A stretch of 64,000 nucleotides of DNA, taken from contig JBBDRA010000003.1 in the NCBI GenBank assembly GCA_040905715.1, forward strand, positions 135,075-199,074, read 5' to 3'. Shown piece after piece: positions 11,882-35,730 of this stretch. Within the stretch, counting starts at the first letter, position 1; each line of letters begins with the position of its first letter. Below the pieces are notes generated by a model, which saw nothing but the letters and a program-made list of their open reading frames with translations, had not been told where the DNA came from and did not search any database. The position numbers were made by a program, and so were the translations under genes. The stretch is from Minisyncoccota bacterium (GTDB lineage: Bacteria; Patescibacteriota; Minisyncoccia; Phycocordibacterales; CSBR16-193).

Positions 11882-11950
11882 CAGTAAAAATTTAGTATCG
11901 GAAGACCCGAATACCCTTATTTTTAGGGATTTCTAGAAACCGATGAAAGT

Positions 11951-14165: not shown

Positions 14166-14346
14166 ATTGAACAAAAGATATTTATAAATAACATAAAATA
14201 AAAATTGATTTCATCCACTCGGACTTATCTATCTTCGATGTTTTGTGGTTTATATAGCTATTAATTACAAATCTATCAAAAGCGATAGGGGTGCTTAGAG
14301 ATTACATTTTACTATAGACTTAGGTAATGTTTTATGGTACTATAAT

Positions 14347-16790: not shown

Positions 16791-16803
16791 TTTATAATTA
16801 ACT

Positions 16804-17274: not shown

Positions 17275-17383
17275 ATATTATTATTTGACACCATAATCAT
17301 ATCGTGTTAATTTGTACATAGATTCATTATATGTTGTTCTGATTTTAAGATCTGTTCTTCACATCCAAAAACGGAGGTAAGTC

Positions 17384-18073: not shown

Positions 18074-18153
18074 AATACAGAGCCTTTTTTTATAATTTAT
18101 AATTTATTTTAAAGTCTGTATACTGATATGTAAGCATACGGAGCTAAATTTTT

Positions 18154-19380: not shown

Positions 19381-19446
19381 TCAATCTATCGCAACATGTT
19401 TAATTATTAATAAACACCAGACGAAATATGGATAATAAAATTAGGT

Positions 19447-21120: not shown

Positions 21121-22431
21121 TTACGCCATCAAATCAACTTTCTTGTCTTTTACTGTTAACCTACTCTTAAGACAATTCATCAGCTCTCGCTTCTCATCGT
21201 TGGTACCCTCCTGCAGAAGGTACTTTGCATACGTCCTCATATCAAACTCTTTTATTTTTGATTCATCTTCATGCAAGATTCCTTTCCTAAATTTATTGAA
21301 TCGTTTCAGTTCATCTTCAAACTTCTTTTGTATACCTAGTTCGCTGACACTCACTTTATCAATGATTCCAATTAGTTGTTTTATTAAATCTTCTTCACGC
21401 AGATACGGATTTTTGCAGTGTCGATCTCGTGATCTACCACAACCGTAGTAGATGTATTTGGCGGTCGTGCCGTCACGGAGTTTTTTGTATTTCTCTTCAG
21501 CTGAGATACCTGATCCGCACTTGCCACAGAGCATGAGTTTGGTGAAGGCAAACTCCTTATGCTCTCTAACAATCTTATCTCGTTTCAAATGCTCTTGAGC
21601 TTCGTCAAATAGCTCTTTAGTGATGAGCGGTTTGTGCTTTCCTTGATACCAGTTGCCGGAGTCTCGTGGATACTCAAAGACACCGTAATAGAACGGATTG
21701 TCGAGCAGTCGGTAGATACCGCTAAGAGTAAGTGGTTTGTTTCCTCTGGTATGGAAATTAAGTTCAAATCGAAGCCAATGATACAACTTTCTGCCAGACC
21801 ATTTATCGTGTGCCACCTTCTCAAACATCTGCCTTACCACATGACCGCGCTCAGGATCGACTAGTAACAAACCTTTCTTGTCGGTTCGTTTTTGGTTGAG
21901 ATATCCTAATGGTGCCACCGTCGGCCAGTATCCCATCTCACAACGTGCCCTGAGTCCTCGCTTCACGTTAATGCCTCGGTTATCGTTCTCAAGCTTGGCC
22001 TGTGAGCCAAGAATCATTAGGAGGAACTTCTCATTCGGATTATTAGTGAACACCTGTCCATATGTTCGTATCTCATGGAGTTTCCCTTGGTCCATTAGAT
22101 CAACAACTGCGCCGAGGTCTCCGGCATTCCTCGACAGACGATCAGGTGCCCATGCCAGAATACCGGTATACTTGCCAACCCTAACCTCATCCATCAGCTC
22201 ATTGAATACTGGCCTCTGAGCAGTATCTTTGGCTGAATGACTCTCGCGCTTAATATCTACCACTTCAAGCCCTTCACGCTCAGCCAACTGAAGCATCTCC
22301 TTGATCTGCGAATCGATTGAAAGTACCTGACGTTCTTCGCTCTCGGTACTTTTTCGTGAGTACAAGCAGTACTTTATCTTTTCTTTCGGTACTACTTGGT
22401 TTTGCTCCTTTTCTTGTACTGGTATCTCCAT
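21121..22431 (-). CDS. Large serine recombinase (resolvase-domain integrase)
   Basis: N-terminal resolvase domain YCLYSRKSTESEERQVLSIDSQ with catalytic Ser. Recombinase domain, zinc-ribbon cysteines (CGKCGS...YYGCGRSRDRHC) and a C-terminal coiled-coil. Confidence 0.9.
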   Translation of the reverse strand: MEIPVQEKEQNQVVPKEKIKYCLYSRKSTESEERQVLSIDSQIKEMLQLAEREGLEVVDIKRESHSAKDTAQRPVFNELMDEVRVGKYTGILAWAPDRLSRNAGDLGAVVDLMDQGKLHEIRTYGQVFTNNPNEKFLLMILGSQAKLENDNRGINVKRGLRARCEMGYWPTVAPLGYLNQKRTDKKGLLLVDPERGHVVRQMFEKVAHDKWSGRKLYHWLRFELNFHTRGNKPLTLSGIYRLLDNPFYYGVFEYPRDSGNWYQGKHKPLITKELFDEAQEHLKRDKIVREHKEFAFTKLMLCGKCGSGISAEEKYKKLRDGTTAKYIYYGCGRSRDRHCKNPYLREEDLIKQLIGIIDKVSVSELGIQKKFEDELKRFNKFRKGILHEDESKIKEFDMRTYAKYLLQEGTNDEKRELMNCLKSRLTVKDKKVDLMA

Positions 22432-22542: not shown

Positions 22543-22746
22543 ATGGATAATGAATCTAAAAACTTGGAAGATTTGCCTGAGATATTGACCCTGCGACAAG
22601 CCGCAAATGTTCTTAATTGTCACCCTAATACCTTGAGAAACTGGGATAATGAAGGAGTACTTAAGGCAATTCGTATCGGTCGCCGGAAAGATCGACGATA
22701 TAAAAAAGAGGATGTGTTTAAAATTTTGAAACAAAACAATGGCTAA
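22543..22746 (+). CDS. Excisionase/MerR-like HTH DNA-binding protein (candidate recombination directionality factor)
   Basis: 67 aa. ILTLRQAANVLNCHPNTLRNWDNEGVLKAIRIGRRKDRRY is an Xis/HTH_17-type motif. Divergent from the recombinase gene, and it overlaps the mod start. Confidence 0.65.
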   Translation: MDNESKNLEDLPEILTLRQAANVLNCHPNTLRNWDNEGVLKAIRIGRRKDRRYKKEDVFKILKQNNG

Positions 22747-24406
22747 AGATTACTCAAAAATGAATAAGGAAGAATTACTGAATGAGATTACGAAATTAGA
22801 ATCTCGCAAGTCTTATGGTTTGGTGTGGGAAGATAAGCCAGAGGATGTTGTTGAACAGTGTAAAACTCAAATACCGATTCTTACTGAAGTTAAAAAATAT
22901 TTTATCGAAAAAGATTTGGATAAGCCGACAAATCTTTTGATCGAAGGAGATAATTATCATGCTTTAGCAACATTGAATTATACTCATAGAAAACAAATTG
23001 ACATTATTTATATTGACCCACCGTACAATACTGGTGCAAAGGATTGGAAATACAATAACGATTATGTGGATGAGAATGATTCATTTAGACATAGTAAATG
23101 GTTGTCGATGATGAACCATCGGTTACGTTTATCTAGAAACTTACTTACGGACGAAGGCGCCTTAATTTGCGCGATTGATCATAATGAACAAGAAGCGCTG
23201 GGCGTAATGTTGGATGAGCTTTTTCCAGAAAGAGAGAAAGTTTGTGTAACCATCATACATAATCCTGGTGGGATTCAAGGAAACAATTTTTCTTACACAC
23301 ACGAATATGCATACTTTGTTTTCCCTAAAAATGGCACGTATATCTCAAAGGTTATTAGAGACGATGTAAAGCCTACTCCGCTTAGAGATTGGGGCGGTGA
23401 AGAATCTAAACGCGAATCTGCTAGAAATTGTTTTTACCCAATTCATGTAGATAAAGAAATGAATGTTACGGGATTTGGTGATGTGTTACCAGAAAATAAA
23501 CATCCCAAGTCTGCTGTATTAAAAGAAAAAGATGGATCAATGGTAATTTACCCCATTGACTCTGATGGAGTTGAACGTAAGTGGAGATTTGCGCGACATA
23601 CTGTTGAAAGTATTGAAGATGAACTTAGATGTGAAATAGTAAATGGTGAACCATCAATACGCCGATACAAACAAAAATATAGATGGAAAACTGTTTGGAA
23701 TGATAGTAAATACAATGCAAATGTCCACGGTACACAATATCTTGCAGGTATTATTAAGGAAAAATTCCCTTATCCTAAATCAATCTTTACAGTAGAAGAT
23801 TGTATTAAGGCCATTATTCACGATAAACAAACTGCAACCGTATTAGATTTTTTTGCTGGATCAGGTACAACTGGTCATGCGGTTTTGAAACTTAACGAAG
23901 AAGATGGAGGTAATCGTCGATTCATTCTTTGCACTAACAATGAGAATAAAATCGCTGAAGAAGTAACTTATCCTCGGGTTAAGAACGTTATCAAGGGGTA
24001 CGGTGACGTAGAAGGTATTCCCGCGAATCTCCGATACTACAAAACTGATTTTGTGGATGTTGAATCAGTTCACAGTGTTTCAGATCAAAAGAAAATAGAG
24101 CTTACATATAAAGCAGGTCGGATGATTGCTCTACGAGAGGACACGCTAGAGGAGACTGAGAAGAATGACTGGTGGCAAATATTTACTGACAAAAAAGGAA
24201 AAACCACAGCTATTTATTTTAAAGAGGATAAAGAAAAACTTGATGATCTTGTAAAGAAAATCAGTAAATCTGAATCTGCTGTTCTTTACATATTTAGCTG
24301 GGGTAAAAATGAGTATAAGAACGAGTTTACTGGCCATAAAAACATACGGGTCGAAGATATCCCAGAACCGATCCTTGAGGTATACAAGGAAATTAACAAG
24401 AAATAA
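22739..24406 (+). CDS. Type III restriction-modification Mod subunit (N6-adenine/N4-cytosine DNA methyltransferase, beta class)
   Basis: Motif IV IDIIYIDPPYNT precedes motif I VLDFFAGSGTTGHAV. It lies directly upstream of a helicase-nuclease Res gene. Confidence 0.8.
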   Translation: MAKDYSKMNKEELLNEITKLESRKSYGLVWEDKPEDVVEQCKTQIPILTEVKKYFIEKDLDKPTNLLIEGDNYHALATLNYTHRKQIDIIYIDPPYNTGAKDWKYNNDYVDENDSFRHSKWLSMMNHRLRLSRNLLTDEGALICAIDHNEQEALGVMLDELFPEREKVCVTIIHNPGGIQGNNFSYTHEYAYFVFPKNGTYISKVIRDDVKPTPLRDWGGEESKRESARNCFYPIHVDKEMNVTGFGDVLPENKHPKSAVLKEKDGSMVIYPIDSDGVERKWRFARHTVESIEDELRCEIVNGEPSIRRYKQKYRWKTVWNDSKYNANVHGTQYLAGIIKEKFPYPKSIFTVEDCIKAIIHDKQTATVLDFFAGSGTTGHAVLKLNEEDGGNRRFILCTNNENKIAEEVTYPRVKNVIKGYGDVEGIPANLRYYKTDFVDVESVHSVSDQKKIELTYKAGRMIALREDTLEETEKNDWWQIFTDKKGKTTAIYFKEDKEKLDDLVKKISKSESAVLYIFSWGKNEYKNEFTGHKNIRVEDIPEPILEVYKEINKK

Positions 24407-24408
24407 TT

Positions 24409-26688
24409 ATGTTTACACTTAAAACCTTTCAAGAAAAAGCGATAGCTGAATTACGGAAAAACTTCCTAGAACTTTGGAGTACAGGGAATAAGAGGCTAGA
24501 ACTTATATTCAAATCACCAACTGGATCAGGAAAAACAGTAATGACTGCACAGTTTTTGCGTGACTTAACTGGTGATCCACAATTCAACGCTGACAAAGCA
24601 TTCGTGTGGTTTACCTTTAACGAGGAATCATACGAACAAAGCAAGAAGAAGCTTTTTAAATATTATGGCGGTGCCGGAGAAATCGAACTCCTTGATTTAA
24701 ATGATCTTACCCGTAACGCCAAACTGGAGAAAAACAGTGTCTTCTTTATTAACTGGCAGAAGGTAAAGTCTTCTACTAAAGATGGTCGTAAGTTACGAAA
24801 AGACAACGAGAATGACATTACTTTTGACTCATTCATAGAAAAATCAAAAGCAGATGGTCGTGAGATTGTATTGATTGTTGATGAAGCACATCGAGATGCG
24901 AACACTGACCTTGCTCAGGAACTTATTGATCTCATTGATCCGCGCATTATTCTCAAAATTACAGCCACTCCGAAGAATGAACCGTCGTATTCTGATGTGA
25001 AAAATAAGAAGGTCGGTTTTGTAGACGTTGAGCGTAAGGCTGTAATCGAGGAAGGTTTGATTAAAGAAAAAGTTATTACCCAAACTAAGGAAGATATTGA
25101 GAAAGAGGCAAAGAGAGAAATTGACCAAGATTTATTATTGCTCGATTTAGCGTATCAAAAGCGTCTCGAGCTTAAGAAGAGTTATGAAAAGCTTGGTATT
25201 GATATTAATCCTCTTGTACTGGTCCAACTTCCCAATGATGATAAAGCTCGCAAGGAAACCTTAGATAAATCAAAGAAGGATGTCGTTCTTGATTTTCTAA
25301 AAGATAAAGGTGAAGAAGATCACAATGTTGCTGTTTGGCTTTCAAACGACAAAGAAAATTTGGATGAAATTGAAAAAAATGACTCAGAGATAAATTTCTT
25401 AGTTTTCAAACAGGCGGCTGCCACTGGTTGGGATTGTCCTCGAGCGGCTATCTTGGTGATGTACCGAGAGATTAAAAGTCCGGTCTTTCACATACAAACT
25501 GTCGGGCGAATTCTTCGTATGCCTGAAGCTATTCACTATCCAAGTCCTGATCTAAATATTGGATATCTATATACAAACTACGAGCGAAATCAGATCCTCG
25601 CTGAATACGATAAGCAAAAAGGAGAAAATCGTCCTGCGACACAGATAAGTCGACGCAAGAAAGATGTTAAACCAATCAAGCTCGACTCTGTATTTATGAG
25701 TCGTGCTGACTACAACGACCTTGGTGACTCATTCCAGAAGACATTTAAGCAAGTCGCGAATAAAGAGTTGGGTATTAAAGATGGAAATACTAAAGCACAG
25801 ATTAAGAAGACACTGAAAGAACAGAACCTAGATGTCACAGATGTGAAAGTAGAGAGTAGTCTTATTGTGGATGCTGAAATAGAAAACTACGATAATTTTA
25901 TTGAGGAACTAAGAGCAAATACGGTAGAGCTTTCAAATGAAATTTCACGTAATGATCTGGAGCGTCTCTACAATCTCCTTTGTTTCAATATCATTTCTAA
26001 ACAAGAGGATGAGAACAAGAAATTTGCTCCTGAACGTTCATGGGGAAAGTTGAAAACTGCACTCAACGTCTACTTCTCAAATATGCTAGACATCCCTCGT
26101 GAGGATTACTACAAAGTCATTGTAAATGATCTACTCCGACCAGATAGTGTATTGCGCCCTATTCTTGGGGAGACACTTGAGAAATATCGTCCAATCCGTG
26201 AAAAGGAAGTCAAAGAGAAAGCTAAGCGAACTCGACGTGATGAAGTGTTGGAAATACCACGAGAGTATCTATTCTTCACAGATCTGTATGAAGAGATGAA
26301 AGTGAAGAAGTCTGCGATGCATCCTTTCTATATTCAGAAGGAACCTGTTCAAAATGAAAATGAGTTTATCAAATATCTTGAGGCATCAAGTAAGGTCGAG
26401 TGGTGGTATAAGAATGGTGACTCTGGAAGTGAATATTTCTCAATTCCTTATTATCACGAAACAGAAAATCGTGAACGCCTTTTCTATCCTGACTGGATTG
26501 TGAAGACTAAGAACAAAGTTTGGATCCTCGATACCAAAGCTGGCTTTACTGCCGAAAGCAACGATACTCAATACAAAGCAGAAGCATTGAAAGGATGGTT
26601 AAAGGGAAAGAATAAATTTGACGGCGGTATTGTGGTGCCAGACGGTCCGAACGGGTGGAAAATTGGTGGTAAGAAATTAATTTTATAA
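24409..26688 (+). CDS. Type III restriction enzyme Res subunit (SF2 helicase + C-terminal PD-(D/E)xK-like nuclease)
   Basis: Walker A SPTGSGKTVMTAQ and DEAH box LIVDEAHRD. Late helicase motifs QAAATGWDCP...QTVGRILR. C-terminal YPDWIV...VWILDTKAG. Starts 2 nt after mod. Confidence 0.8.
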   Translation: MFTLKTFQEKAIAELRKNFLELWSTGNKRLELIFKSPTGSGKTVMTAQFLRDLTGDPQFNADKAFVWFTFNEESYEQSKKKLFKYYGGAGEIELLDLNDLTRNAKLEKNSVFFINWQKVKSSTKDGRKLRKDNENDITFDSFIEKSKADGREIVLIVDEAHRDANTDLAQELIDLIDPRIILKITATPKNEPSYSDVKNKKVGFVDVERKAVIEEGLIKEKVITQTKEDIEKEAKREIDQDLLLLDLAYQKRLELKKSYEKLGIDINPLVLVQLPNDDKARKETLDKSKKDVVLDFLKDKGEEDHNVAVWLSNDKENLDEIEKNDSEINFLVFKQAAATGWDCPRAAILVMYREIKSPVFHIQTVGRILRMPEAIHYPSPDLNIGYLYTNYERNQILAEYDKQKGENRPATQISRRKKDVKPIKLDSVFMSRADYNDLGDSFQKTFKQVANKELGIKDGNTKAQIKKTLKEQNLDVTDVKVESSLIVDAEIENYDNFIEELRANTVELSNEISRNDLERLYNLLCFNIISKQEDENKKFAPERSWGKLKTALNVYFSNMLDIPREDYYKVIVNDLLRPDSVLRPILGETLEKYRPIREKEVKEKAKRTRRDEVLEIPREYLFFTDLYEEMKVKKSAMHPFYIQKEPVQNENEFIKYLEASSKVEWWYKNGDSGSEYFSIPYYHETENRERLFYPDWIVKTKNKVWILDTKAGFTAESNDTQYKAEALKGWLKGKNKFDGGIVVPDGPNGWKIGGKKLIL

Positions 26689-26690
26689 TT

Positions 26691-27383
26691 ATGTCATCCC
26701 GTCAAGTAACAAATTGGATTTCTCTTTCTGACATGATGACAGGGTTAATGCTGGTCTTTCTCTTGATTGCTGTTTTGAGTATTGCGCAGGTTGTTGCAAA
26801 AGAAGAAGAGCGACAGGAATTATTGAATGAATATGATTTATCTAAGGAGGAAATTTACAATGATCTAGAAGATACGTTTGGAGACAAAAAAGAAGAATGG
26901 GGAATTGAGATAAGTCGAGATTTGAGCATCAAATTTCAAAATCCTGACGTATTGTTTGGTTATTTAAGTTCTGATATCTCCTCAGAATTTGAAACTATTC
27001 TAGAAGAATTTATTCCTTCGTATCTAAAGATAATAAATAAAGAAAAATATCAAGACAAAATTAAAGAAGTTCGCGTTGAGGGTCATACAGCTGATTGGAA
27101 TGATTATATGTTTACGGTTAAATTGTCTCAAGAAAGGGCAAATGCTGTATTAAGGACTATACTTAACAGTAGCTATTACAACAATTTAGATGCTAAAACA
27201 AAAGATAAAATTAAGTTTTGGTTTACAGCTAATGGACTGGGAAATGGTAGAACTTTGGACTCAGAAGGTGAGTTTACTTATTATTCCGATAAAGATATAA
27301 GCACAAACTCTCGTCGAGTTGAGTTTAGGATTGTGACAACAAGTGATGAACTAATTGAGGAGATTATCAATAGACAGCAATAG
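26691..27383 (+). CDS. MotB/ZorB-like protein: N-terminal TM with conserved Asp plus C-terminal OmpA-like peptidoglycan-binding domain
   Basis: WISLSDMMTGLMLVFLLIA parallels the MotB channel helix (W..yADfMTamMafFlv), including the protonatable Asp. The C-terminal VRVEGHTADWNDY...LSQERANAVLRTIL is the OmpA/MotB signature. Confidence 0.7.
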   Translation: MSSRQVTNWISLSDMMTGLMLVFLLIAVLSIAQVVAKEEERQELLNEYDLSKEEIYNDLEDTFGDKKEEWGIEISRDLSIKFQNPDVLFGYLSSDISSEFETILEEFIPSYLKIINKEKYQDKIKEVRVEGHTADWNDYMFTVKLSQERANAVLRTILNSSYYNNLDAKTKDKIKFWFTANGLGNGRTLDSEGEFTYYSDKDISTNSRRVEFRIVTTSDELIEEIINRQQ

Positions 27384-27389
27384 AACATT

Positions 27390-28427
27390 ATGACTTTAAT
27401 GACAATATTTATAGTGGTTTGGATTGTGCTAACAATTTACATTCCATACAAATTTAAAGAAAGAGGTATCCAAGAGATGCAAACTATTGCAACTACGTTT
27501 GGTATCCTTGGAACATTTATCGGTATTATTGTTGCTTTGTATAATTTTGATACTTCGAACATTGAAGCCGCGGTTCCATTGTTGCTCGACGGATTAAAGT
27601 TTGCTTTTGTAACATCTATTTTTGGAATGTTAACATCTTTACTTATTGGACTTTTTCCTCAAAAATTTGGACACGGTGTTGCCAATGAAGAGGGTGTAAC
27701 TGAAGACAAGGATAAATCAGAGCCAGAATTACTCGCTGAGTTACTTTCAGAAGTTAAAATTCTTAATGGGAATATATCTGGAGAAAGCGATACTACTTTA
27801 ATTACGCAAATTCAAAAAATGCGAACAAGTATTGTAGATAAGCAAGATGATCTAAATAAGGCTTTTGACAAATTTGCCGAAGATATGGTTAATAGTAATA
27901 TTGACGCTCTCGCAGAAGCTATTGAAAAAGTAATGGGTGATTTTAACACGACAGTTAATGAAAAGTTGGGCAGGACCTTTGATGATTTTAAGAAATCAGT
28001 GGAAAATCTTAATGTTTGGCAATCTGAGTATAAAGCTCAGATATTGTCTCAAACTGAAAATATGAAATCAGTTGCAGACTCACTAAGTACTACAGAAAAA
28101 AGTATGAGTGAGGTTAAAGATTCTTATCAAGAAATTGTTTCTATAAAAGAAAAATTTGATGAGCTTCTTAAAAACCTGAATGCGCAATTACAAGGTAGTT
28201 TAGATTTTGCAGACGCAATGAAAGACTTAACAACTGATCTAGAAGGATCGGGCGATGTTATAAAAGAAGAGATGAAAGAGATTACTTATGGAGCTGCTAC
28301 AGAAATGGAAAAAACAATGAATAAAACATTAGCTGATTTTGGGAGTAGTTTAGCAGATATTTCTGGAAAATTAGCGGAGAATTTTGGAAAAATGCAGCGA
28401 GCACTTGATAGTCATGAAAATAACTAA
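27390..28427 (+). CDS. MotA/ExbB/TolQ-like proton-channel protein with ~240-aa C-terminal coiled-coil tail (compact ZorA-like)
   Basis: Three N-terminal TM helices carry the MotA-family motifs FGILGTFIGIIVAL and LKFAFVTSIFGMLTSL. The remainder is E/K/L/Q-rich and predicted coiled-coil. Confidence 0.6.
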   Translation: MTLMTIFIVVWIVLTIYIPYKFKERGIQEMQTIATTFGILGTFIGIIVALYNFDTSNIEAAVPLLLDGLKFAFVTSIFGMLTSLLIGLFPQKFGHGVANEEGVTEDKDKSEPELLAELLSEVKILNGNISGESDTTLITQIQKMRTSIVDKQDDLNKAFDKFAEDMVNSNIDALAEAIEKVMGDFNTTVNEKLGRTFDDFKKSVENLNVWQSEYKAQILSQTENMKSVADSLSTTEKSMSEVKDSYQEIVSIKEKFDELLKNLNAQLQGSLDFADAMKDLTTDLEGSGDVIKEEMKEITYGAATEMEKTMNKTLADFGSSLADISGKLAENFGKMQRALDSHENN

Positions 28428-28432
28428 TATCT

Positions 28433-29245
28433 ATGGAAAAGGACGAATTTAACAATAAAATATCGGATATAGTAAGCTATTTTGATGACATTAAACAAAG
28501 AATCGGTGCTAAAGATACGGGGTTTGTGATAGTGCCAAGAGAATTGAAAACTCCAACTGGTAAATTTAATGCTGGTAAACCAATTACTGGTGCTGAATTA
28601 CAAAGAATTTCTAAAAATTGGAAATCAAAAGATCCTTTGATTGATGAGGAAGGTAATGCGTTCGTTCTTTATATACCTGATTTTACAAGTAATCATTATA
28701 GGAGAGGCTTTTCTCCAGAAAATTTACCAAAGTATCATACTTCTTGGTGTTGGACATTAGATAATATGAAGGAATCAGGAAGAATGAAAAGATATATTAA
28801 AAAGACGGATATAGAAACAAATATCTTTAAAGGGAAAAAGGATGGAGATAGAAATATTGAGAGTGTATTATATGCTTGTCAAAATTGTAGAAAAACATTA
28901 GAAGATATTTACGGAAGAAATATGTATTTTGACGTTAAAAATATGGATATGCTCAAGTTTTTCTCTTTGTACGGAAAACATTATTTATATGACCCTAAAG
29001 TGAAAAAACCTTATTCTGTAATGTATCCAAAACATTGGGATGAAATTTCAAAGAAATATAGAGAAAAAGCAAATTGGAAGTGTGATCAGTGTGGTGAGTC
29101 TTTCGCGAATAACAAAAAGGAATTAGATGTTCACCATATAAATGGAATTAAAAGTGATGTTAGGGATACAAACCTAAAAGTTTTATGTAAAAAACATCAT
29201 GCTGAACAACCTATGCATAGTCATTATAACAAAATTATAAATTAG
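28433..29245 (+). CDS. HNH endonuclease (ZorE-like)
   Basis: C-terminal HNH motif CDQCGESF...DVHHINGIKSDVRDTNLKVLCKKHHA, plus an earlier CQNCRK cysteine pair (zinc-binding). Starts 5 nt after the preceding gene. Confidence 0.7.
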   Translation: MEKDEFNNKISDIVSYFDDIKQRIGAKDTGFVIVPRELKTPTGKFNAGKPITGAELQRISKNWKSKDPLIDEEGNAFVLYIPDFTSNHYRRGFSPENLPKYHTSWCWTLDNMKESGRMKRYIKKTDIETNIFKGKKDGDRNIESVLYACQNCRKTLEDIYGRNMYFDVKNMDMLKFFSLYGKHYLYDPKVKKPYSVMYPKHWDEISKKYREKANWKCDQCGESFANNKKELDVHHINGIKSDVRDTNLKVLCKKHHAEQPMHSHYNKIIN

Positions 29246-29250
29246 TATTT

Positions 29251-30723
29251 ATGAATTTAACAAAAACAGACTTTAAAGAATACTTAATTTGCCCCAAATG
29301 GTTATGGGTAAAGAAAAAGAAACCTGAACTTGCAGTTGAGGGTGAGATGTCGCTATTCCTGAAGAAACTTATTAAAGATGGATATGAGGTTGAGGAATTC
29401 GCTCAGCAGATGTTTCCAAGTGGTGTTGAGATAACTGGCAACTCAGGTGTACTGAAAGAAAAAACTCAGGAATATCTAGAAAAAAATCAAACAATGTTTC
29501 AAGCGACTTTTGAGACAGACAGAGGCTTGTTTGCAAAGGCAGACGTTCTCGAATTTGATGAAGAAAGTGGTAAGTGGAATATCTATGAAATTAAGGCAAG
29601 TTCTTCAATCAAGACCGATCTTCAACATAATCATCTAAAAGATATTACATTTCAAACAATCGTCGCCGAAGAATCAGGGATTCCTATAAATAAAAGTTTT
29701 ATCATCCATATCAATAAGGAATACAAACGAGAGGGTGAAATAAACCCAAGAGAATTATTTGTTATAGAAGACGTCTCTAAAGATGTCCAAGAAGGTAAAG
29801 AAAAAGTAAACCAAGAAATTGAGACTGCTTTAGATTTTTTAAGTAAAGATAAAATCTCAATGGAAGGTTGTGAGTGTTTATACAAATCACACGGACAAAG
29901 ATGTGATTCATTCACAGTCTTTAACCCTAAGGTGCCTGAATATTCAGTTCATCATATCGTTGGTGGAAAGAAACTCCTCTCACTTATTGAAACTGATGTA
30001 TTTGATGTGAAAGAGATTCCAGAAGATTTTAATCTTACCGATAAGCAACAAGAAAAAGTCACACTCCAAAAAACCGGTAAGCCAATAATCGATGAAGAGT
30101 CAATCAGAGAAACGCTTTCTAATTTAACTTTCCCTCTGTATTTCTTAGATTATGAGACTTTTGGTAAGCCATATCCAATACTTGATGGATACACCTCAAA
30201 TCAGCAGATTGTATTTCAATACTCACTACATATTCTAAAGGAAGATGGTTCTTTAGAGCATCGTGAGTATTTAGCTGATGATTTTGAGAATGCCACAAAA
30301 GGACTCCTTGATCATATGAATGAGCATATTGGCCCTACAGGAACTGTTGTCGTCTGGTATGAATCATTTGAAAAAGGAAGAAATAGGGAGCTTGCTGAAA
30401 TACATTCAGAATATGCTGACTTTCTGCACAATATAAACAGCCGAATCTACGATCTAATGCTTATATTTAAAAAAGATTACCTACACCCTGATTTTTATGG
30501 GAGTGCCTCTATCAAAAAAGTGCTTCCTGTAATGCTTCCAGAATTATCCTACAAGAACTTAGAAGTTCAAGACGGAACAATGGCTATGAGCGAATGGGAG
30601 AAGATAGCTACTGGAAAAATTACAGGTGAAGAGGCAGAAGAATTACGAAAACATCTACTGGAATACTGTGAACGAGATACGTTTGCGATGGTTGAGTTGT
30701 TTAAGAAGCTACAACAATTATAA
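29251..30723 (+). CDS. Cas4/RecB-like PD-(D/E)xK nuclease with Fe-S cysteine set, fused to a C-terminal RNase-H-like domain (DUF2779-like architecture)
   Basis: N-terminal YLICPKWLW. Catalytic ADVLEFDE...IYEIKAS (D...ExK). The Cys cluster CECLYKSHGQRC together with the N-terminal Cys gives a Cas4-type 4-Cys arrangement. The C-terminal LYFLDYETF...VVVWYESFEKG resembles the FLDFET RNase-H-like domain. Confidence 0.6.
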   Translation: MNLTKTDFKEYLICPKWLWVKKKKPELAVEGEMSLFLKKLIKDGYEVEEFAQQMFPSGVEITGNSGVLKEKTQEYLEKNQTMFQATFETDRGLFAKADVLEFDEESGKWNIYEIKASSSIKTDLQHNHLKDITFQTIVAEESGIPINKSFIIHINKEYKREGEINPRELFVIEDVSKDVQEGKEKVNQEIETALDFLSKDKISMEGCECLYKSHGQRCDSFTVFNPKVPEYSVHHIVGGKKLLSLIETDVFDVKEIPEDFNLTDKQQEKVTLQKTGKPIIDEESIRETLSNLTFPLYFLDYETFGKPYPILDGYTSNQQIVFQYSLHILKEDGSLEHREYLADDFENATKGLLDHMNEHIGPTGTVVVWYESFEKGRNRELAEIHSEYADFLHNINSRIYDLMLIFKKDYLHPDFYGSASIKKVLPVMLPELSYKNLEVQDGTMAMSEWEKIATGKITGEEAEELRKHLLEYCERDTFAMVELFKKLQQL

Positions 30724-30762: not shown

Positions 30763-31605
30763 ATGTTTTCAAAGTTAATTTTTTTAAAAGACAAACTGTT
30801 TCTTAAAATAAGAAACAAAAAGGATGTAAGACTATACACCTTCAAATCAAAACTACTGCTATATGGAAAAAGAAATTTTAAGCAATATTTCACGATAGCA
30901 AGAGACGGAACTGTGACAGAGAGGATTCTTTTGAATGTACCTGATGTTTCATTAAGAGAAGAAATTATTTGTAAACACTACCTTTCTTTTTTAGTTAAAA
31001 ACTTAATAAAGGAACCTATCGGTATCAACTTGCTAAAAAGGGATCAGCCATGGGATTTTAGTGTTGAGCTCAGTAATGGTGATAAGTTTAATATAGAAAT
31101 CACATCAATCGCTGAAAACAAGGAGTTGTTTGAGAAATTAAAACGTGAAGAGGAGTTTGAAAAAATAGTCGCGAGAAAAAATATTTTATTGCGCGAACTC
31201 AAAAAAATCCATTTCTGGTTTCGTAACAAAAAGGCAAAACAGACCATCAATGATGCTGAAGAAAATTTTTTAAATAAAAACGATAAAGTATTGAATCCTT
31301 TTTACAATTATCCAAGCAGGATTTTCTATAGTAGTTACATAAAGAATGAGGGGGACTCTCTGAAAGATTTGATATCAGGAGCAATTAAAAGAAAGGTGTC
31401 CAAGTCTCATTTAGATAAAGATAAAACTATTTTAATAATTGATAACCGAACTATCCAATTCGGCCTGGAAGACATTTTTTGGGTAATTAAGGAGTTAGAA
31501 GTTGAGTGTGCACACATTCCTTTTCCTGAGATTTATTTCTACACAGGCCACTACTCAGATGACGATGGGAATAATGCTAGGTATTCATTCGTACCCCTTA
31601 AGTAA
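30763..31605 (+). CDS. Hypothetical protein (280 aa), possible degenerate PD-(D/E)xK-like core
   Basis: AT-rich ORF with no clear family. DFSVELSNGDKFNIEITS might be a D...E-x-(K/T) nuclease-like core. Speculative. Confidence 0.35.
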   Translation: MFSKLIFLKDKLFLKIRNKKDVRLYTFKSKLLLYGKRNFKQYFTIARDGTVTERILLNVPDVSLREEIICKHYLSFLVKNLIKEPIGINLLKRDQPWDFSVELSNGDKFNIEITSIAENKELFEKLKREEEFEKIVARKNILLRELKKIHFWFRNKKAKQTINDAEENFLNKNDKVLNPFYNYPSRIFYSSYIKNEGDSLKDLISGAIKRKVSKSHLDKDKTILIIDNRTIQFGLEDIFWVIKELEVECAHIPFPEIYFYTGHYSDDDGNNARYSFVPLK

Positions 31606-31663: not shown

Positions 31664-32278
31664 TTACCGTTTATTTCTCCTTATCTTTTTTCTATCAAGA
31701 AGTTTCTGAAGATTATCCGCCACCTCTTTAGCTCCGTCTATTTTCAATTTATCTTTTACATCATAAAACTGATCAAAGAAATCATTTATAATATGACGCA
31801 CCTCCTCGCTAGTTCGTTCTTTGGTTCCAAGTTCTTTAATTCTTTTCGATAGCTCGTGAACCAAATCTTCTTTACTTATTTTCTGTTTTTTTCTGCCTCT
31901 ATACTTTTCTATATTGGGTTCTTTATAACCACAAACCCGACATGTTTCTCCAGATTCAAGTTTGTGTGGATGAGTAACTGGATCGACATAAGTTGTACGA
32001 ACTGGTTTGTATCTCGGATTGTTGTATTGAAGCCAGAATATAATAAGGCGAGCATTTTCGTTTTTGATGCCTTTAATAACCGCTGACTCAGCCATGTCAT
32101 TTATGTTCTGCCGACCTATTTCCAATATCGCATCAGTCTGATCACGAAAGTCTTTATCATCCTTACGCCATCTGTAGTAGGTGGTTCGATCAAGGCCGAT
32201 TTTCTTACAGGCAAAAGACACAATTGGTGTCTCTGCCAATATTTGTAATAGTTTCGATTTATCACCCAACCTAGCCAT
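31664..32278 (-). CDS. Phage terminase small subunit (TerS)-like HTH protein
   Basis: N-terminal HTH PIVSFACKKIGLDRTTYYRWRKDDKDF followed by NARLIIFWLQYNNPRY. Compare the aaIFwLKNRrPExW pattern of phage TerS proteins. Confidence 0.5.
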   Translation of the reverse strand: MARLGDKSKLLQILAETPIVSFACKKIGLDRTTYYRWRKDDKDFRDQTDAILEIGRQNINDMAESAVIKGIKNENARLIIFWLQYNNPRYKPVRTTYVDPVTHPHKLESGETCRVCGYKEPNIEKYRGRKKQKISKEDLVHELSKRIKELGTKERTSEEVRHIINDFFDQFYDVKDKLKIDGAKEVADNLQKLLDRKKIRRNKR

Positions 32279-33587
32279 TAATCTTTACCCGTTTCTTACC
32301 CGTATATTTCTCCCATCTATTCAAGATCACTTCCGTATAGACATTCGATTTTTCCATGAGGAAACAACGCCTATTTAACCTATTGGCTGCGATTAAGGTA
32401 GATCCGCTTCCACCAAACGGTTCATACACCAATTCGTCTCTTTTCGTTAGTATCTTTATATACGGAATCAGTATTTCTACAGGTTTCGTGCCAAAGATAA
32501 TTCCCTGACCGCTAGATTTTTCATCCGCCGCATTATGTTCAATAAAGTCAGTTGGGCAGTACTTTTTGTTTTTTCCATATGACTCCCAGTGTGGTTTGCC
32601 GGATATAGCAAACAGAGCGGTTTCGTATTCATTTTCAACAAGTTCCCCCTCTTGTTCTAAATTAACCTCTTTGTTATCCGTACCAACCATAGCAATGTCA
32701 TACTTTGAAAAGAGTTTGTGCTTTCCGGCATACCCTTGATTTCTGTTGGGGAGATGCCAGATAAGCATATTCCTGACTTTCCAGTATTTCTCCATCTCAT
32801 TCCAGATCGTCCTGATATTTTTCCAGTTTTCATAGACAATGATAGCGAAATGCTCGTCTTGTATTTTATTCACATTCGCCATCCACTTTTCGGTAAAGTC
32901 TTCGGGGATAGATTCGGTTTCTAAGTACCTTCTGTTTTTCTTGGCTCCAAAGCCGGTGGTTGCTTCACCGTGTTTAGTCTTGCCGTGTAGGTAATCTAAA
33001 ATATATGGAGGGTCCGTCATAACCATCTGGGCTTTTTCTTTACCAAACAGTTTTGTGACATCTGCCTCTGTTGTGCTATCACCACACATTAAGCGTGACC
33101 CATCGAGATCATAGATATCTCCCTTTTTGACAGTGACTTCTTTGATATCCAGTTTTTCTAGTTCTTTTTGGAGATCAAAAAGTTCTTCTTCGTGATCTTC
33201 GTCGAAAATAATATCTAGTTCTTCGGAATCAAATCCGATGTCAGCTAGAATGGTTTCATCGAATTCTGCCAAAAGGTCATAATTAAATTCTCCTTGATTT
33301 TTGTTTAAACGAAGATTTAATTCTTTTTCTTTTTCCTCGGTTAGATCAAGAAAAACCACAGGAATAGTTGTGTGACCAAGCTCCTTACACACCTCGAGTC
33401 GAAAGTGGCCACCAATAACGACATTGGTTCTCTCTTTATTTTTATTAACAATCAACGGATCAATTGTGCCAAAACGATTGATACTCTCTTTTAATTGTTT
33501 TTTCTGAAATTCATCCCATGTACGAGGATTATATTCAGAAGCGTGAAGTAGATTTATATCTACATATTCTATTTTGATGTTGCTCAT
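32271..33587 (-). CDS. ParB-like nuclease domain fused to N6-adenine/N4-cytosine DNA methyltransferase (orphan MTase)
   Basis: N-terminal ParB/Srx domain (IEYVDINLLHASEYNPRTW...GGHFRLEVCKELG). MTase motif IV MVMTDPPY and motif I VYEPFGGSGSTLIAA. No adjacent restriction endonuclease. Confidence 0.8.
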   Translation of the reverse strand: MSNIKIEYVDINLLHASEYNPRTWDEFQKKQLKESINRFGTIDPLIVNKNKERTNVVIGGHFRLEVCKELGHTTIPVVFLDLTEEKEKELNLRLNKNQGEFNYDLLAEFDETILADIGFDSEELDIIFDEDHEEELFDLQKELEKLDIKEVTVKKGDIYDLDGSRLMCGDSTTEADVTKLFGKEKAQMVMTDPPYILDYLHGKTKHGEATTGFGAKKNRRYLETESIPEDFTEKWMANVNKIQDEHFAIIVYENWKNIRTIWNEMEKYWKVRNMLIWHLPNRNQGYAGKHKLFSKYDIAMVGTDNKEVNLEQEGELVENEYETALFAISGKPHWESYGKNKKYCPTDFIEHNAADEKSSGQGIIFGTKPVEILIPYIKILTKRDELVYEPFGGSGSTLIAANRLNRRCFLMEKSNVYTEVILNRWEKYTGKKRVKING

Positions 33588-33677: not shown

Positions 33678-34388
33678 TCACTTTTTTATGAACTTTTTAA
33701 ATACCCGATCCCTTATCTTTTTTATTTGGTCGGATATATTATATATCTCTGACTTACTCGGTCTTTTTCCAGTCTTATCTTCTATAAAGTCTGCTATATC
33801 CTCTGATGTTCTGGTGATATATTCTTGGTCTCCATAGTCAAAATAAATTCTTTTGTTTTCCCATTGATCTTTGATTGCGAGTTTTCTATCTAAATCTTTT
33901 ATTTTCTTGTTAGAAAAAAGTCTCTTACCAAAAAACTTATTTGTAAACTCTTTTATAGTTAACCAATCTTTGTCAGTTAATTTATTATTTATAGTAAGTT
34001 GTACCGCTCTATTTCCAACAGTTGGTTTGATAGAAAAAGGTAACCCTGGAAGTTTTTTAATTTCACCAGTTATTATGTATTGTCTTATCGTCTCAAACCA
34101 GTTATCAGGATAATTAAAGTCCTTAATTATCTCTTGGATACTTGCAGTAAAATAGTTTATGAGTTCCTCCGCATTTTCCTTATGTAGTAATTTATTAAAC
34201 CAAGCCTCAATTGATTGATCCTCATCTTTAGATTCGCTATCTCCATAAAGGCCTTCAGGGATTTCTAAATAGGATCGAATTTCTTGAATTCTTTTTCCAA
34301 ATTCTGGATCACTAAAAGCCAATCGTATATTGTCTTTGTTTCTAGAGCCGTATTCACTTATTTTCCGTTTTAAACCCTTATCTTTCAT
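33678..34388 (-). CDS. Hypothetical protein (236 aa), basic/acidic K/E-rich
   Basis: ORF with island-like AT-rich composition. No recognisable motif. Confidence 0.35.
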   Translation of the reverse strand: MKDKGLKRKISEYGSRNKDNIRLAFSDPEFGKRIQEIRSYLEIPEGLYGDSESKDEDQSIEAWFNKLLHKENAEELINYFTASIQEIIKDFNYPDNWFETIRQYIITGEIKKLPGLPFSIKPTVGNRAVQLTINNKLTDKDWLTIKEFTNKFFGKRLFSNKKIKDLDRKLAIKDQWENKRIYFDYGDQEYITRTSEDIADFIEDKTGKRPSKSEIYNISDQIKKIRDRVFKKFIKK

Positions 34389-34726
34389 TGTTTTGATGAT
34401 AGTTTGTTTGTATTATGAAAGCAACAGTTATATGCTCCCTCGTGTAGTATTTGTTGCATTTTTTACAAGTTACAGCCCGACCCGACCTCCTCAAAATCCG
34501 CTATACTAAAACCACCAAGAAACCCTTGTGGGGCTTGAAATAATTTATTACTTAACCCGAACTGCCCGCCGAAGAGTTTTGCGATGAGGTGGAGAGGGCG
34601 AGCGCAGTATTTTTGAAAAAAATACGTCGCGCGGACTCGAAAAGGTTCTTTAGATATTTTGTGAGCTTGCCTGCTGGCAGGCAGGGAACGAGACAAAATA
34701 TCAAAAACCTGTACTGATCCTGTAAG

Positions 34727-34750
34727 GATCGAGTCCCGCCGCCTCCGCAG
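34727..34750 (+). repeat. Direct repeat of the tRNA-Ser 3' end (attR-like)
   Basis: TCGAGTCCCGCCgcCTCCGCAG here versus TCGAGTCCCGCCctCTCCGCAG at 11862-11883, 20/22 identical in the same orientation. It is followed by a 9-bp inverted repeat CCTCCGCAG...CTGCGGAGG. Confidence 0.55.
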
Positions 34751-34836: not shown

Positions 34837-35730
34837 TTGTTTAAGCTGGGTACGTACTTTATTGCGGTTCCTGCGGAATATTTGTATAGTGTTGTTACTA
34901 TGACAAATAAACAAAACAATGTTAATATCTCACCGCGTAAGAGTAAGAAAGTTGTTGCTATAAGTTTTCTTTTCTCAGTCTTTCTGGCTGTGTTATCAAT
35001 TTTTATATCAAATCTTATTATTACACCAAGTCCTTGGGGACCGGTGTATTTTTTTTGGGGTTTTGAAATAGCTAAAATTTTTAGTGCGAGTGTGCTTTTT
35101 ACATTTATAGCATCAGTGCCGTTCATTATTCTAAATTTTTTTGCTGTATTTATTTTTAGAAAACACAGAAGTATTAGGGTTGGATTATTACTGGGTTATT
35201 TGAGTATAATATTAATCTATTTAGTATCATTAGCGCTTTATGGATCTATCCCTTCACTGAATACTATAAATCAAGTTGGTCCGGAAGATGCAAGTCAATG
35301 TGCAGAAATGCAAGTTACTAATAGTACAGAAGGTGCGTTAAGAAACTATTGTTATATAGAAGTTGCTGAAGAGACCTTGAACATTGATTTGTGTGATGAT
35401 CTTGTGAGTGAATATGTAGCCGGAGATATACAATCATGTAAAGATAATATAAATCTTAAGCTTGCATTGGAAAACCTGGATGCTAATTATTGTGAAAATA
35501 TAGTTTACAGCAATAATCGTAATACCTGTAACCTATCTATGTCATTACAAACTGAAAATTATAGTCTTTGCACTAAAATTATTGAGGGAGGCGTCCTTGA
35601 TACTGAGATGTGCTACATGAGGTTCATCAAGCAATATAACTCAGAGGAGATAAGAAACGAACTTTGTCCACTAATAAAAAACCACAGGGATAATGTGAAT
35701 AATCCTTGTAATAAACCCATACCTGAGTAG
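34837..35730 (+). CDS. Multi-TM membrane protein with Cys-rich extracytoplasmic C-terminal domain
   Basis: 4-5 hydrophobic helices, then a C-terminal region with about 14 cysteines (CAEMQV...CYIEV...CDDLV...CKDNI...CENIVY...CNLS...CTKII...CYMRF...CPLIK...CNKP). Confidence 0.4.
   Translation: MFKLGTYFIAVPAEYLYSVVTMTNKQNNVNISPRKSKKVVAISFLFSVFLAVLSIFISNLIITPSPWGPVYFFWGFEIAKIFSASVLFTFIASVPFIILNFFAVFIFRKHRSIRVGLLLGYLSIILIYLVSLALYGSIPSLNTINQVGPEDASQCAEMQVTNSTEGALRNYCYIEVAEETLNIDLCDDLVSEYVAGDIQSCKDNINLKLALENLDANYCENIVYSNNRNTCNLSMSLQTENYSLCTKIIEGGVLDTEMCYMRFIKQYNSEEIRNELCPLIKNHRDNVNNPCNKPIPE

What the first reader, a model, noticed from the sequence alone, without database searches (positions are those of the whole stretch)
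26691..29245. Minimal Zorya type II-like module with inverted gene order (ZorB-like before ZorA-like) and a much shorter ZorA tail
MotB-like: the channel helix WISLSDMMTGLM carries the conserved Asp, and the OmpA-like PG-binding C-terminus is GHTADW...SQERANAV. MotA-like: helices with FGILGTFIG and FAFVTSIFGMLTSL, then a ~240-aa coiled-coil tail. HNH nuclease: DVHHINGIKSD...NLKVLCKKHHA. Together these equal the component set of Zorya type II (ZorA, ZorB, ZorE). The MotB homolog precedes the MotA homolog here, and the MotA-like protein is only 345 aa. Described ZorA proteins are roughly twice that length. The tail has been proposed to set the reach of the signalling arm, so a half-length tail in an ultra-small cell is biologically interesting.
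Basis: partly seen in the sequence, partly recalled or inferred. Interest (0 to 1): 0.8.

Follow-up and report, generated by a model that had tools for sequence, protein, structure and literature searches.

The report
Rearranged compact Zorya II defence operon
This is a complete type II Zorya anti-phage system in an ultra-small Paceibacterota (CPR) bacterium; it belongs to a CPR-only branch that carries the genes in the order zorB-zorA-zorE and has the most compact ZorA tails of the family, but that tail is only about 10% shorter than the type II ZorA whose structure is solved, not half as long.

Summary
The three ORFs and all quoted motifs are present at 26691-29245. They match the type II Zorya profiles over nearly their full length: ZorB2 1e-66, ZorA2 1e-56, ZorE2 3e-43. 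They also match the solved Sulfuricurvum kujiense type II ZorAB (8VVI). So this is a true Zorya II system.

The inverted order is real and lineage-specific. All 17 loci of the Patescibacteria-type branch read B-A-E, and all 64 other type II loci I retrieved read A-B-E. The split has 97-100% bootstrap support.

The "half-length tail" claim holds only against type I ZorA (~700 aa). The solved type II ZorA is 378 aa. ZorA on the CPR branch (325-398 aa) is still the short extreme of the family (median 478 aa elsewhere). It lacks one variable insert near the C-terminus.

The host is a Candidatus Paceibacterota MAG. The operon lies in a low-GC island, fused downstream of a type III restriction-modification pair and upstream of a Cas4-like DUF2779 nuclease. 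That nuclease recurs next to zorE on this branch.

Published Zorya surveys used RefSeq and discarded non-canonical gene orders, so this branch was probably missed. Verdict: a new variant of a known system, of moderate interest.

The parts
26691..27383 (+). zorB (230 aa): N-terminal transmembrane helix with the channel Asp (D14, codon 26730-26732), a linker, and an OmpA-like peptidoglycan-binding domain
   Evidence: PADLOC ZorB2 1e-66, residues 4-229 against 12-237 of 238 profile positions. PDB 8vvi_A (type II ZorB) 3.7e-33, with WISLSDMMT identical. Pfam OmpA 6.8e-6.
27390..28427 (+). zorA (345 aa): three transmembrane helices (residues 3-88, nt 27396-27653), a disordered linker (89-110), and an all-helical cytoplasmic tail (111-344, nt 27720-28421)
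   Evidence: PADLOC ZorA2 1.1e-56, residues 5-334 against 18-349 of 420. PDB 8vvi_F 1.4e-28, residues 13-335 against 16-363 of 378. AF2 secondary structure. Best Foldseek hit 8vvi_C. Helical periodicity z 7-10. T42, T75 and S76 are invariant.
28433..29245 (+). zorE (270 aa): HNH nuclease effector. The HNH/zinc-finger core is residues 217-256 (nt 29081-29200). A conserved N-terminal H/C cluster comprises H102, C106, C149 and C152.
   Evidence: PADLOC ZorE2 2.6e-43, residues 53-266 against 48-265 of 283. Invariant C217, C220, H234, H235, N247, C252 and H256 across 15 ZorE sequences of both gene orders. Precomputed Pfam DUF8245.
29251..30723 (+). Associated gene, not a recognised Zorya component: Cas4-like PD-(D/E)XK nuclease N-terminus plus a DUF2779 domain (490 aa), starting 5 nt after zorE
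   Evidence: Pfam DUF2779 2.1e-37. PADLOC Cas4 4.5e-9, residues 2-181. A homologue lies directly after zorE in L005, L061, L062, L066, L079 and L080, and nearby in L002. Its ORF overlaps zorE by 4 nt in L005, L062 and L066.
22739..26688 (+). Context: type III restriction-modification pair, Mod 22739-24406 and Res 24409-26688. Res ends 2 nt before zorB.
   Evidence: PADLOC MTase_III 5e-75 and REase_III 2.3e-15; Pfam N6_N4_Mtase and ResIII. Same arrangement in L079.
22543..22746 (+). Context: small HTH protein (67 aa) at the head of the same-strand gene string; it overlaps the Mod start
   Evidence: ORF list. Precomputed Pfam HTH_17/MerR_1.
21121..22431 (-). Context: large serine recombinase, divergent from the defence gene string
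   Evidence: Pfam Resolvase, Recombinase and Zn_ribbon_recom. Close homologues lie beside zorBAE in L002, L005 and L066.

Best explanation
The locus is a functional type II Zorya anti-phage system of a Candidatus Paceibacterota (CPR/Patescibacteria) bacterium. By homology with the characterised systems, five ZorA subunits surround two ZorB subunits in the cytoplasmic membrane. ZorB anchors to peptidoglycan through its OmpA-like domain. Ion flow past ZorB Asp14 and the ZorA Thr/Ser ring turns ZorA around ZorB. The bundled helical ZorA tail, about 235-245 residues and roughly 32-35 nm if extended, carries the signal into the cytoplasm. The HNH nickase ZorE is then recruited and concentrated at the membrane, where it nicks phage DNA and, collaterally, host DNA. 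This copy belongs to a monophyletic, CPR-restricted branch of type II Zorya in which zorB moved ahead of zorA (zorB-zorA-zorE). On this branch the ZorA tail is reduced to the conserved core and lacks the variable insert found in other lineages. The cassette travels in mobile defence islands next to restriction-modification enzymes and often a Cas4-like DUF2779 nuclease. Shown here: sequence membership, intact catalytic residues, purifying selection, gene order, clade structure and host. Inferred from published work on other Zorya II systems: stoichiometry, rotation, ZorE recruitment and nicking.
For: All three proteins match the type II profiles nearly end to end, and ZorA and ZorB match the solved type II complex 8VVI. 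ZorB D14, ZorA T42/T75/S76 and the ZorE HNH and Cys residues are conserved. The tail is helical with strong amphipathic periodicity. dN/dS against the closest relative L079 is 0.03-0.07 for zorB, zorA, zorE and the DUF2779 gene; dS is near saturation. Gene order is B-A-E in all 17 loci of the CPR-type branch and A-B-E in all 64 others. The BA|AB split is recovered in 97/100 (ZorA), 100/100 (ZorB) and 100/100 (concatenated) bootstraps. Named B-A-E loci are from Paceibacterota, Saccharibacteria and Kaiserbacteria. The window's housekeeping proteins are identical to Paceibacterota MAG proteins. The mechanism comes from PMC11890865 (5:2 complex, tail bundle, ZorE nickase recruited to the membrane on infection) and PMC11946911 (rotary model, PG sensing).
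Against: There is no experimental evidence for this locus or for any CPR Zorya. The published activation model was built for diderm envelopes, and Zorya is reported as under-represented in monoderms, whereas Patescibacteria are thought to lack an outer membrane. The trigger may therefore differ. The AF2 model is a monomer of medium confidence (mean pLDDT 66.7, pTM 0.30), so bundle geometry and tail length are estimates. The promoter and terminator scans were at chance level, so the operon structure rests only on spacing and strand.
Confidence: 0.88

Rival explanations
1. On this CPR branch the working unit is larger than zorBAE. The Cas4-like DUF2779 nuclease downstream, and possibly the restriction helicase/nuclease upstream, is a functional partner. 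That would make a four-gene (or larger) Zorya subtype in which ZorE nicks and the PD-(D/E)XK nuclease processes DNA.
For: The whole string HTH-Mod-Res-zorB-zorA-zorE-DUF2779 is on one strand with 2-6 nt gaps. A DUF2779 homologue follows zorE in 7 of about 13 B-A-E loci whose downstream side is visible, and sits nearby in an eighth (L002). Its ORF overlaps zorE by 4 nt in L005, L062 and L066. It diverges roughly in step with ZorA and is under purifying selection. No DUF2779 homologue was found in the A-B-E loci screened. Published precedent: Druantia-associated ZorE variants carry an extra C-terminal PD-(D/E)xK-like region, and ZorE can cooperate with helicase-nucleases.
Against: L003, L004, L012, L067 and L081 have zorBAE without DUF2779, so it is not obligatory. 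The upstream partner changes type between loci: type III, type IIG/ISP, MmeI-like, and RNase H plus an SF1 helicase. That is the signature of defence-island shuffling rather than a fixed partnership. Adjacency of defence genes is common without functional coupling.
Confidence: 0.2
2. The MotA/MotB-like pair is a housekeeping ion-driven stator of the Mot, Tol or Exb type, and the neighbouring HNH gene is unrelated.
For: Pfam alone sees only MotA_ExbB (34 bits, residues 27-100) and OmpA (26.8 bits, just under the cut-off). NCBI names the protein 'MotA/TolQ/ExbB proton channel family protein'.
Against: The Zorya II profiles score 190-223 bits over the full length, against 27-34 bits for the generic families. 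The best PDB and fold matches are ZorA and ZorB, ahead of TolQ, PomA, MotA and ExbB. A 235-residue helical tail is absent from Mot, Tol and Exb proteins. ZorE co-occurs in nearly every retrieved locus whose zorE side is present. The locus sits in a low-GC island with restriction-modification genes and a recombinase.
Confidence: 0.02
3. The cassette is an inactive remnant carried passively on a decaying mobile element.
For: The island looks partly degraded. Compared with L061 and L080 it lacks a large terminase next to the conserved HTH plus ParB-methylase block. One relative, L081, has a fragmented zorE.
Against: All three ORFs here are full length against profiles and the solved structure, with catalytic residues intact. 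dN/dS is 0.03-0.07 against L079.
Confidence: 0.05

Closest known systems
Zorya type II of Sulfuricurvum kujiense (ZorA5B2 cryo-EM structure, PDB 8VVI) and E. coli ATCC 8739 (functional work), PMC11890865
   Same: Same three proteins and domain plan. ZorA has three TM helices without the large insert of type I, plus a helical tail; it aligns at 13-335 against 16-363, E 1.4e-28. ZorB has the identical WISLSDMMT channel motif and an OmpA-like domain (E 3.7e-33). ZorE is an HNH nuclease.
   Different: The gene order here is zorB-zorA-zorE instead of zorA-zorB-zorE. ZorA is 345 aa against 378 aa. The host is a CPR bacterium thought to lack an outer membrane, not a diderm proteobacterium or campylobacterote. 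The cassette is fused into one gene string with a type III RM pair and a DUF2779 nuclease.
Zorya type I (E. coli NCTC 9026 ZorABCD, PDB 8QYD; Shewanella ANA-3, 8VVN), PMC11946911
   Same: The ion-channel core is homologous (ZorA residues 29-87 match 134-195 of EcZorA; ZorB E 3.2e-10), and both follow the general plan of a 5:2 motor with a cytoplasmic coiled-coil tail.
   Different: Type I ZorA is about 700-730 aa with a ~70 nm tail and an extra domain between TM1 and TM2. Its effectors are ZorC and ZorD, which are absent here. This is the comparison that made the tail look half-length.
Flagellar MotAB/PomAB, TolQR and ExbBD 5:2 motors
   Same: Shared MotA_ExbB channel fold, a conserved Asp on the B-subunit helix, and, for MotB, an OmpA-like peptidoglycan anchor.
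   Different: These have no long helical tail, no nuclease partner and no defence-island context. They are only distant sequence and fold matches.

Membership tests
Zorya type II | ZorA: MotA/ExbB-like membrane core followed by a long alpha-helical cytoplasmic tail | tested here: met
   PADLOC ZorA2 1.1e-56 over residues 5-334. 8vvi_F 1.4e-28. AF2 helices 3-21, 27-51, 58-88, then 111-344. Periodicity z 7-10.
Zorya type II | ZorB: single TM helix with the conserved channel Asp plus a C-terminal OmpA-like peptidoglycan-binding domain | tested here: met
   PADLOC ZorB2 1e-66. 8vvi_A 3.7e-33; D14 aligns with D21 of S. kujiense ZorB. Pfam OmpA 6.8e-6.
Zorya type II | ZorE: HNH endonuclease as the only soluble component (no ZorC/ZorD, no ZorF/ZorG) | tested here: met
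   PADLOC ZorE2 2.6e-43, and no neighbouring protein hit a ZorC, ZorD, ZorF or ZorG profile. HNH and Cys residues are invariant.
Zorya type II | Canonical same-strand gene order zorA-zorB-zorE (described as typical; used as a filter in PMC11946911) | tested here: not met
   The order here is zorB-zorA-zorE on one strand. The same order holds in all 17 loci of the CPR-type branch and in none of 64 others. The literature treats order as typical rather than defining, so this marks a variant and does not exclude membership.
Zorya type II | Polar Ser/Thr ring in ZorA facing the ZorB Asp | tested here: inconclusive
   T42, T75 and S76 are invariant in the family alignments. Assigning them to the ring described in PMC11890865 is by homology only; I did not superpose residues.
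Zorya type II | ZorA5:ZorB2 assembly with a pentameric tail bundle | not testable with these tools
   Only monomer prediction was available. It needs a multimer prediction or cryo-EM.
Zorya type II | Anti-phage activity that depends on ion flow, PG binding, the tail and ZorE nickase | not testable with these tools
   Known for E. coli ATCC 8739 Zorya II. Nothing is known for CPR.
Zorya type I | ZorC and ZorD effectors; ZorA of about 700 aa | tested here: not met
   No ZorC or ZorD profile hit in the neighbourhood. Type I ZorA profiles match only weakly, 3e-11 at best.
Flagellar MotAB / TolQR / ExbBD | Stator without a long tail, encoded with flagellar, Tol-Pal or TonB partner genes | tested here: not met
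   The tail is 235 residues long. The neighbours are RM, nuclease and recombinase genes. These families rank below ZorA in the fold search.

The most novel reading that the evidence does not exclude
The CPR-restricted zorB-zorA-zorE branch is a distinct Zorya subtype adapted to an ultra-small cell without an outer membrane. Its tail is trimmed to the minimal functional core, because tail length scales with cell or genome size. Its trigger differs from the diderm model of a shrinking inner-membrane-to-peptidoglycan distance. A Cas4-like DUF2779 nuclease, possibly translationally coupled to zorE, acts as a fourth, DNA-processing component.
Probability: 0.15. Interest if true: 0.65.

Novelty: new variant of a known kind. 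Interest (0 to 1): 0.42.

Why it matters
Zorya is one of the few defence systems thought to sense phage attack at the cell envelope, and its tail is proposed to relay that signal. Three things follow from this locus.

1. The main published surveys used RefSeq, which omits nearly all CPR genomes, and the tail-length and phylogeny survey also discarded non-canonical gene orders. Together these filters would hide this branch.

2. Zorya is reported as under-represented in single-membrane bacteria, and its activation model relies on diderm envelope geometry. A conserved, selected branch in Patescibacteria gives a natural test case for how ZorB sensing works without an outer membrane.

3. This branch carries what looks like the minimal natural ZorA tail: the conserved core without the variable insert. 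That is a useful construct for structural work and for testing whether tail length matters.

None of this changes the kind of system it is.

Tried and rejected
- **Genome scan with the broad alignment.** A 9-sequence alignment worked.
- **First tree script.** It timed out. The second produced NaN distances from an over-high distance cap. I repeated it with a valid cap and three more loci, and those are the numbers I rely on.
- **Promoter and terminator scan.** The counts equalled those of shuffled sequence, so it says nothing about the operon.
- **PDB sequence search with ZorE.** It found only a spurious eukaryotic zinc finger.
- **Foldseek on the ZorA model.** It ranks ZorA structures first, but with weak E-values (7.8e-3), because the model is mostly long helices.
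- **Scan of viral contigs for the B-A-E branch.** It gave one distant relative only. I therefore dropped the idea that the cassette is typically phage-borne, even though L061 and L080 carry a terminase nearby.
- **Metagenome scan.** It returned only 17 loci.
- **Rejected readings.** I rejected Mot/Tol/Exb housekeeping stator, Zorya type I or III, and pseudogene remnant; the reasons are given under the rival explanations.
Full report
**Observation.** The interval 26691-29245 holds three adjacent + strand ORFs of 230, 345 and 270 aa, separated by 5-6 nt. The Asp of WISLSDMMT is residue 14 of the first protein, codon GAC at 26730-26732. Pfam recognises only the generic families: OmpA 6.8e-6, MotA_ExbB 2.4e-8 and HNH_3 7.6e-4.

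**Identity.** The defence-system profiles of PADLOC match all three proteins nearly end to end.
- ZorB2: 1e-66, residues 4-229 against 12-237 of 238 profile positions.
- ZorA2: 1.1e-56, residues 5-334 against 18-349 of 420.
- ZorE2: 2.6e-43, residues 53-266 against 48-265 of 283.

Type I and type III profiles score far lower. The closest solved structure is the type II ZorAB complex of Sulfuricurvum kujiense, 8VVI. ZorA matches it at 1.4e-28 (13-335 against 16-363 of 378), and ZorB at 3.7e-33 with an identical WISLSDMMT. D14 here therefore corresponds to the critical D21 named in PMC11890865.

An AlphaFold2 monomer model built on 52 aligned homologues has a mean pLDDT of 66.7. It gives three membrane helices (3-21, 27-51, 58-88; pLDDT about 80-88), a disordered linker (89-110) and an almost continuous helix from 111 to 344. 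Its best Foldseek match in the PDB is 8vvi_C (91 columns, TM 0.65 on the target, rmsd 3.3 Å). Type I ZorA follows, then TolQ, PomA/MotA and ExbB. The tail shows strong hydrophobic periodicity at 3.5-3.67 residues (z 7-10, 0 of 500 shuffles reach it) and none at control periods.

In an alignment of 15 ZorE proteins from both gene orders, C217, C220, H234, H235, N247, C252 and H256 are invariant, as is an N-terminal H102/C106/C149/C152 cluster. All are present here. This is a genuine Zorya type II system.

**Tail length.** The claim that described ZorA proteins are about twice as long holds only for type I. E. coli ZorA is 729 aa with a ~70 nm tail, and the Shewanella tail spans residues 236-696. 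The type II ZorA whose structure is solved is 378 aa with a tail at residues 100-378, and the PADLOC ZorA2 profiles are 420-590 positions long. So this ZorA is about 10% shorter than a characterised type II ZorA.

Within the family it still sits at the short extreme.
- ORF-based ZorA lengths are 325-398 aa (median 345) in the 13 complete loci of this branch.
- They are 359-799 aa (median 478) in 56 complete loci with the canonical order (Mann-Whitney p 8e-7 on the set).
- The 359-aa ZorA (L029) is followed by a 220-nt gap and a short 202-aa ZorB, so it looks degraded. L033 (ZorA 351 aa) is clearly degraded and was not in that set. The shortest canonical-order ZorA with normal spacing is 389 aa.

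The difference maps to one place. The membrane core, the proximal and middle tail and the last ~35 residues have almost the same length in both groups. The segment at window residues 297-312 is 5-49 aa (median 16) on this branch and 43-381 aa (median 106) elsewhere. These ZorA proteins are thus the conserved tail core without the variable insert. Using the E. coli figure of about 0.14 nm per residue (70 nm for residues 223-729), the tail here would be roughly 32-35 nm. This is an estimate, not a measurement.

**Gene order.** Hu et al. describe zorABE as the canonical type II order. I fetched 60 loci from species-representative genomes, 17 from metagenomes and 4 through exact protein look-ups. 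In each I located ZorA, ZorB and ZorE homologues with phmmer on six-frame ORFs or from the gene calls.

The order is B-A(-E) in the window and in L001-L005, L012, L061-L067 and L079-L081; L062 and L067 start within or at zorA, so only zorA-zorE is seen there. That is 17 loci including the window. The order is A-B(-E) in all 64 others.

The named B-A-E loci come from Candidatus Paceibacterota, Saccharibacteria and Kaiserbacteria, plus one unclassified MAG. The A-B-E loci come from Poribacteria, Latescibacterota, Bacteroidota, Alpha- and Gammaproteobacteria, Binatia and other diderm phyla.

In neighbour-joining trees of 69 loci, the split separating B-A from A-B loci is present with bootstrap support of 97/100 (ZorA), 100/100 (ZorB) and 100/100 (concatenated). 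The simplest reading is one rearrangement in the ancestor of a CPR-restricted branch. An exhaustive search of 1.84 billion representative proteins finds 177 clusters at E ≤ 1e-30. The word-indexed search lists about 40 clusters at 39% identity or more, with lengths of 301-398 aa. So the branch is populous, not a singleton.

**Host and context.** FtsZ, GyrA, ValRS and other window proteins are identical to proteins of Candidatus Paceibacterota MAGs, with a longest contig of 523 kb. An independent Logan assembly covers the stretch from the defence genes through to FtsZ, so the right-hand junction is not an assembly artefact.

The locus lies in a low-GC stretch of about 12-36 kb (0.32-0.39, against 0.46-0.48 in the flanks). 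This stretch begins next to a tRNA-Ser gene. The last 25 nt of that tRNA recur, 22 of 25 identical, at 34726-34750.

On the + strand, with gaps of 2-6 nt or overlaps, run:
- a small HTH gene;
- type III Mod and Res;
- zorB, zorA and zorE;
- a 490-aa protein with a Cas4-like N-terminus and a DUF2779 domain.

An unknown 280-aa ORF follows after 39 nt. A large serine recombinase is divergent upstream.

Relatives keep the zorBAE core but change the neighbours. Directly upstream of zorB is type III Mod/Res in L079. It is a type IIG/ISP enzyme in L005, L065, L066 and L080, an MmeI-like enzyme in L061, and an RNase H plus SF1 helicase protein in L012. That variety fits defence-island shuffling.

The DUF2779 protein is more constant. 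It follows zorE directly in the window and in L005, L061, L062, L066, L079 and L080, and sits nearby in L002. Its ORF overlaps zorE by 4 nt in L005, L062 and L066. It is absent in L003, L004, L012, L067 and L081, and it was not found in any A-B-E locus screened.

Against L079, dN/dS is 0.03 (zorB), 0.07 (zorA), 0.07 (zorE) and 0.06 (DUF2779), with dS near saturation.

**Mechanism.** By homology with published work, ZorA5B2 is an ion-driven rotary motor anchored to peptidoglycan by ZorB. Its tail is required for defence. ZorAB brings the ZorE nickase to the membrane on infection, where a high local concentration lets it nick phage and host DNA (PMC11890865; PMC11946911). What I show here is that every sequence feature this model needs is present and under selection. 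What remains inferred is assembly, rotation, recruitment, nicking and, above all, the trigger. The published trigger model depends on the inner-membrane-to-peptidoglycan distance of diderms, and Zorya is reported as under-represented in monoderms. Patescibacteria are thought to lack an outer membrane.

**Novelty.** Standard tools would call this locus Zorya II, so the kind is known. The new points are a monophyletic CPR-only branch with a fixed non-canonical order, the most compact tails, a host with a different envelope type, and a recurrent DUF2779 neighbour.

Both published surveys I read used RefSeq. [quoted passage not shown] No paper in the searchable library links Zorya specifically to Patescibacteria: the only paper holding both words mentions them separately, and a search for 'Candidate Phyla Radiation' with 'Zorya' found nothing. 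I file it as a new variant of a known kind, of moderate interest.

Among 19 chromosome-level A-B-E loci, ZorA length rises with chromosome size (Spearman 0.68, p 0.0013). Collapsed to 9 taxon groups this weakens to 0.63, p 0.067. Poribacteria (4.7-7 Mb) have 590-799 aa, Pelagibacteraceae have 403-418 aa, and the CPR branch has 325-398 aa. This is suggestive but not phylogenetically controlled.

**Limits.**
- Locus retrieval used two short peptide patterns per scan, so it is a sample, not a census.
- ORF lengths take the first possible start codon and may overstate N-termini.
- Metagenome loci are assigned to the CPR branch by tree position, not by taxonomy.
- The trees are neighbour-joining on simple corrected distances.
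- The structure is a monomer of medium confidence.

Noticed in passing
window 11860-11884 and 34726-34750; low-GC stretch about 12000-36000: The last 25 nt of tRNA-Ser (11799-11882) recur, 22 of 25 identical, 22.9 kb downstream. The repeats bracket the low-GC region (0.32-0.39 against 0.46-0.48 in the flanks). This looks like the ends of one or more elements integrated at the tRNA gene; the serine recombinase in the middle suggests nesting.
   Followed up: partly
window 29251-30723 (+); L005, L061, L062, L066, L079, L080, L002: A 490-aa protein with a Cas4-like PD-(D/E)XK N-terminus and a DUF2779 domain follows zorE in about half of the B-A-E loci. Its ORF overlaps zorE by 4 nt in three of them. 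It was not seen in any canonical-order locus screened. It could be an accessory nuclease of this Zorya branch.
   Followed up: partly
window 22739-26688; L005:4131-7256, L061:6077-9298, L080:4307-7282, L012:3636-7124: The gene ending 2-4 nt before zorB (about 60 nt in L012) is a large nucleic-acid enzyme whose kind differs between loci: type III Res, type IIG/ISP, MmeI-like, or RNase H plus an SF1 helicase. Either zorBAE is repeatedly captured behind such genes, or the upstream module is swapped.
   Followed up: partly
window 31664-33587 (-); L061:426-4301, L080:1-3040: A conserved block of a small HTH protein plus ParB-N/DNA methylase genes lies near the cassette. In L061 and L080 it sits next to a large terminase-like gene that is missing from the window. 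The island may derive from a phage-like element. A scan of viral contigs found only one distant ZorA relative.
   Followed up: partly
whole window (protein accessions): Identical housekeeping proteins occur in three Paceibacterota MAGs, but the ZorA and ZorE sequences carry accessions from only one of them. The island may be variable between near-identical genomes, or it may be lost at contig breaks.
   Followed up: no
L006-L059: ZorA length in canonical type II loci rises with chromosome size (Spearman 0.68, n = 19; 0.63 over 9 taxon groups, p 0.067). Poribacteria have 590-799 aa and Pelagibacteraceae 403-418 aa. No phylogenetic control was applied.
   Followed up: partly
window 12191-20340 (+): A low-GC run of metabolic genes lies between the tRNA-Ser and the recombinase: E1 dehydrogenase alpha- and beta-like subunits, an aminotransferase, two ATP-grasp ligases, a NUDIX hydrolase, a methyltransferase and a 2-hydroxyacid dehydrogenase. 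It may be a horizontally acquired small-molecule pathway.
   Followed up: no
window 27390-27476; L078:5288-6238: The Logan gene call starts ZorA at Met30 (316 aa) and so drops the first membrane helix. The 345-aa start is supported by alignment to 8VVI from residue 13 and by 345-aa homologues.
   Followed up: yes
L081:9200-10102: One B-A-E relative has zorE broken into three short ORFs (139, 69 and 72 aa) in a housekeeping context. This is an example of decay of the system.
   Followed up: no
window 30763-31605 (+), 33678-34388 (-) and 34837-35730 (+): Three island ORFs of 280, 236 and 297 aa have no Pfam match. The 280-aa ORF also has no PADLOC match; the other two were not scanned against PADLOC. 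The 280-aa ORF closes the same-strand defence gene string.
   Followed up: no
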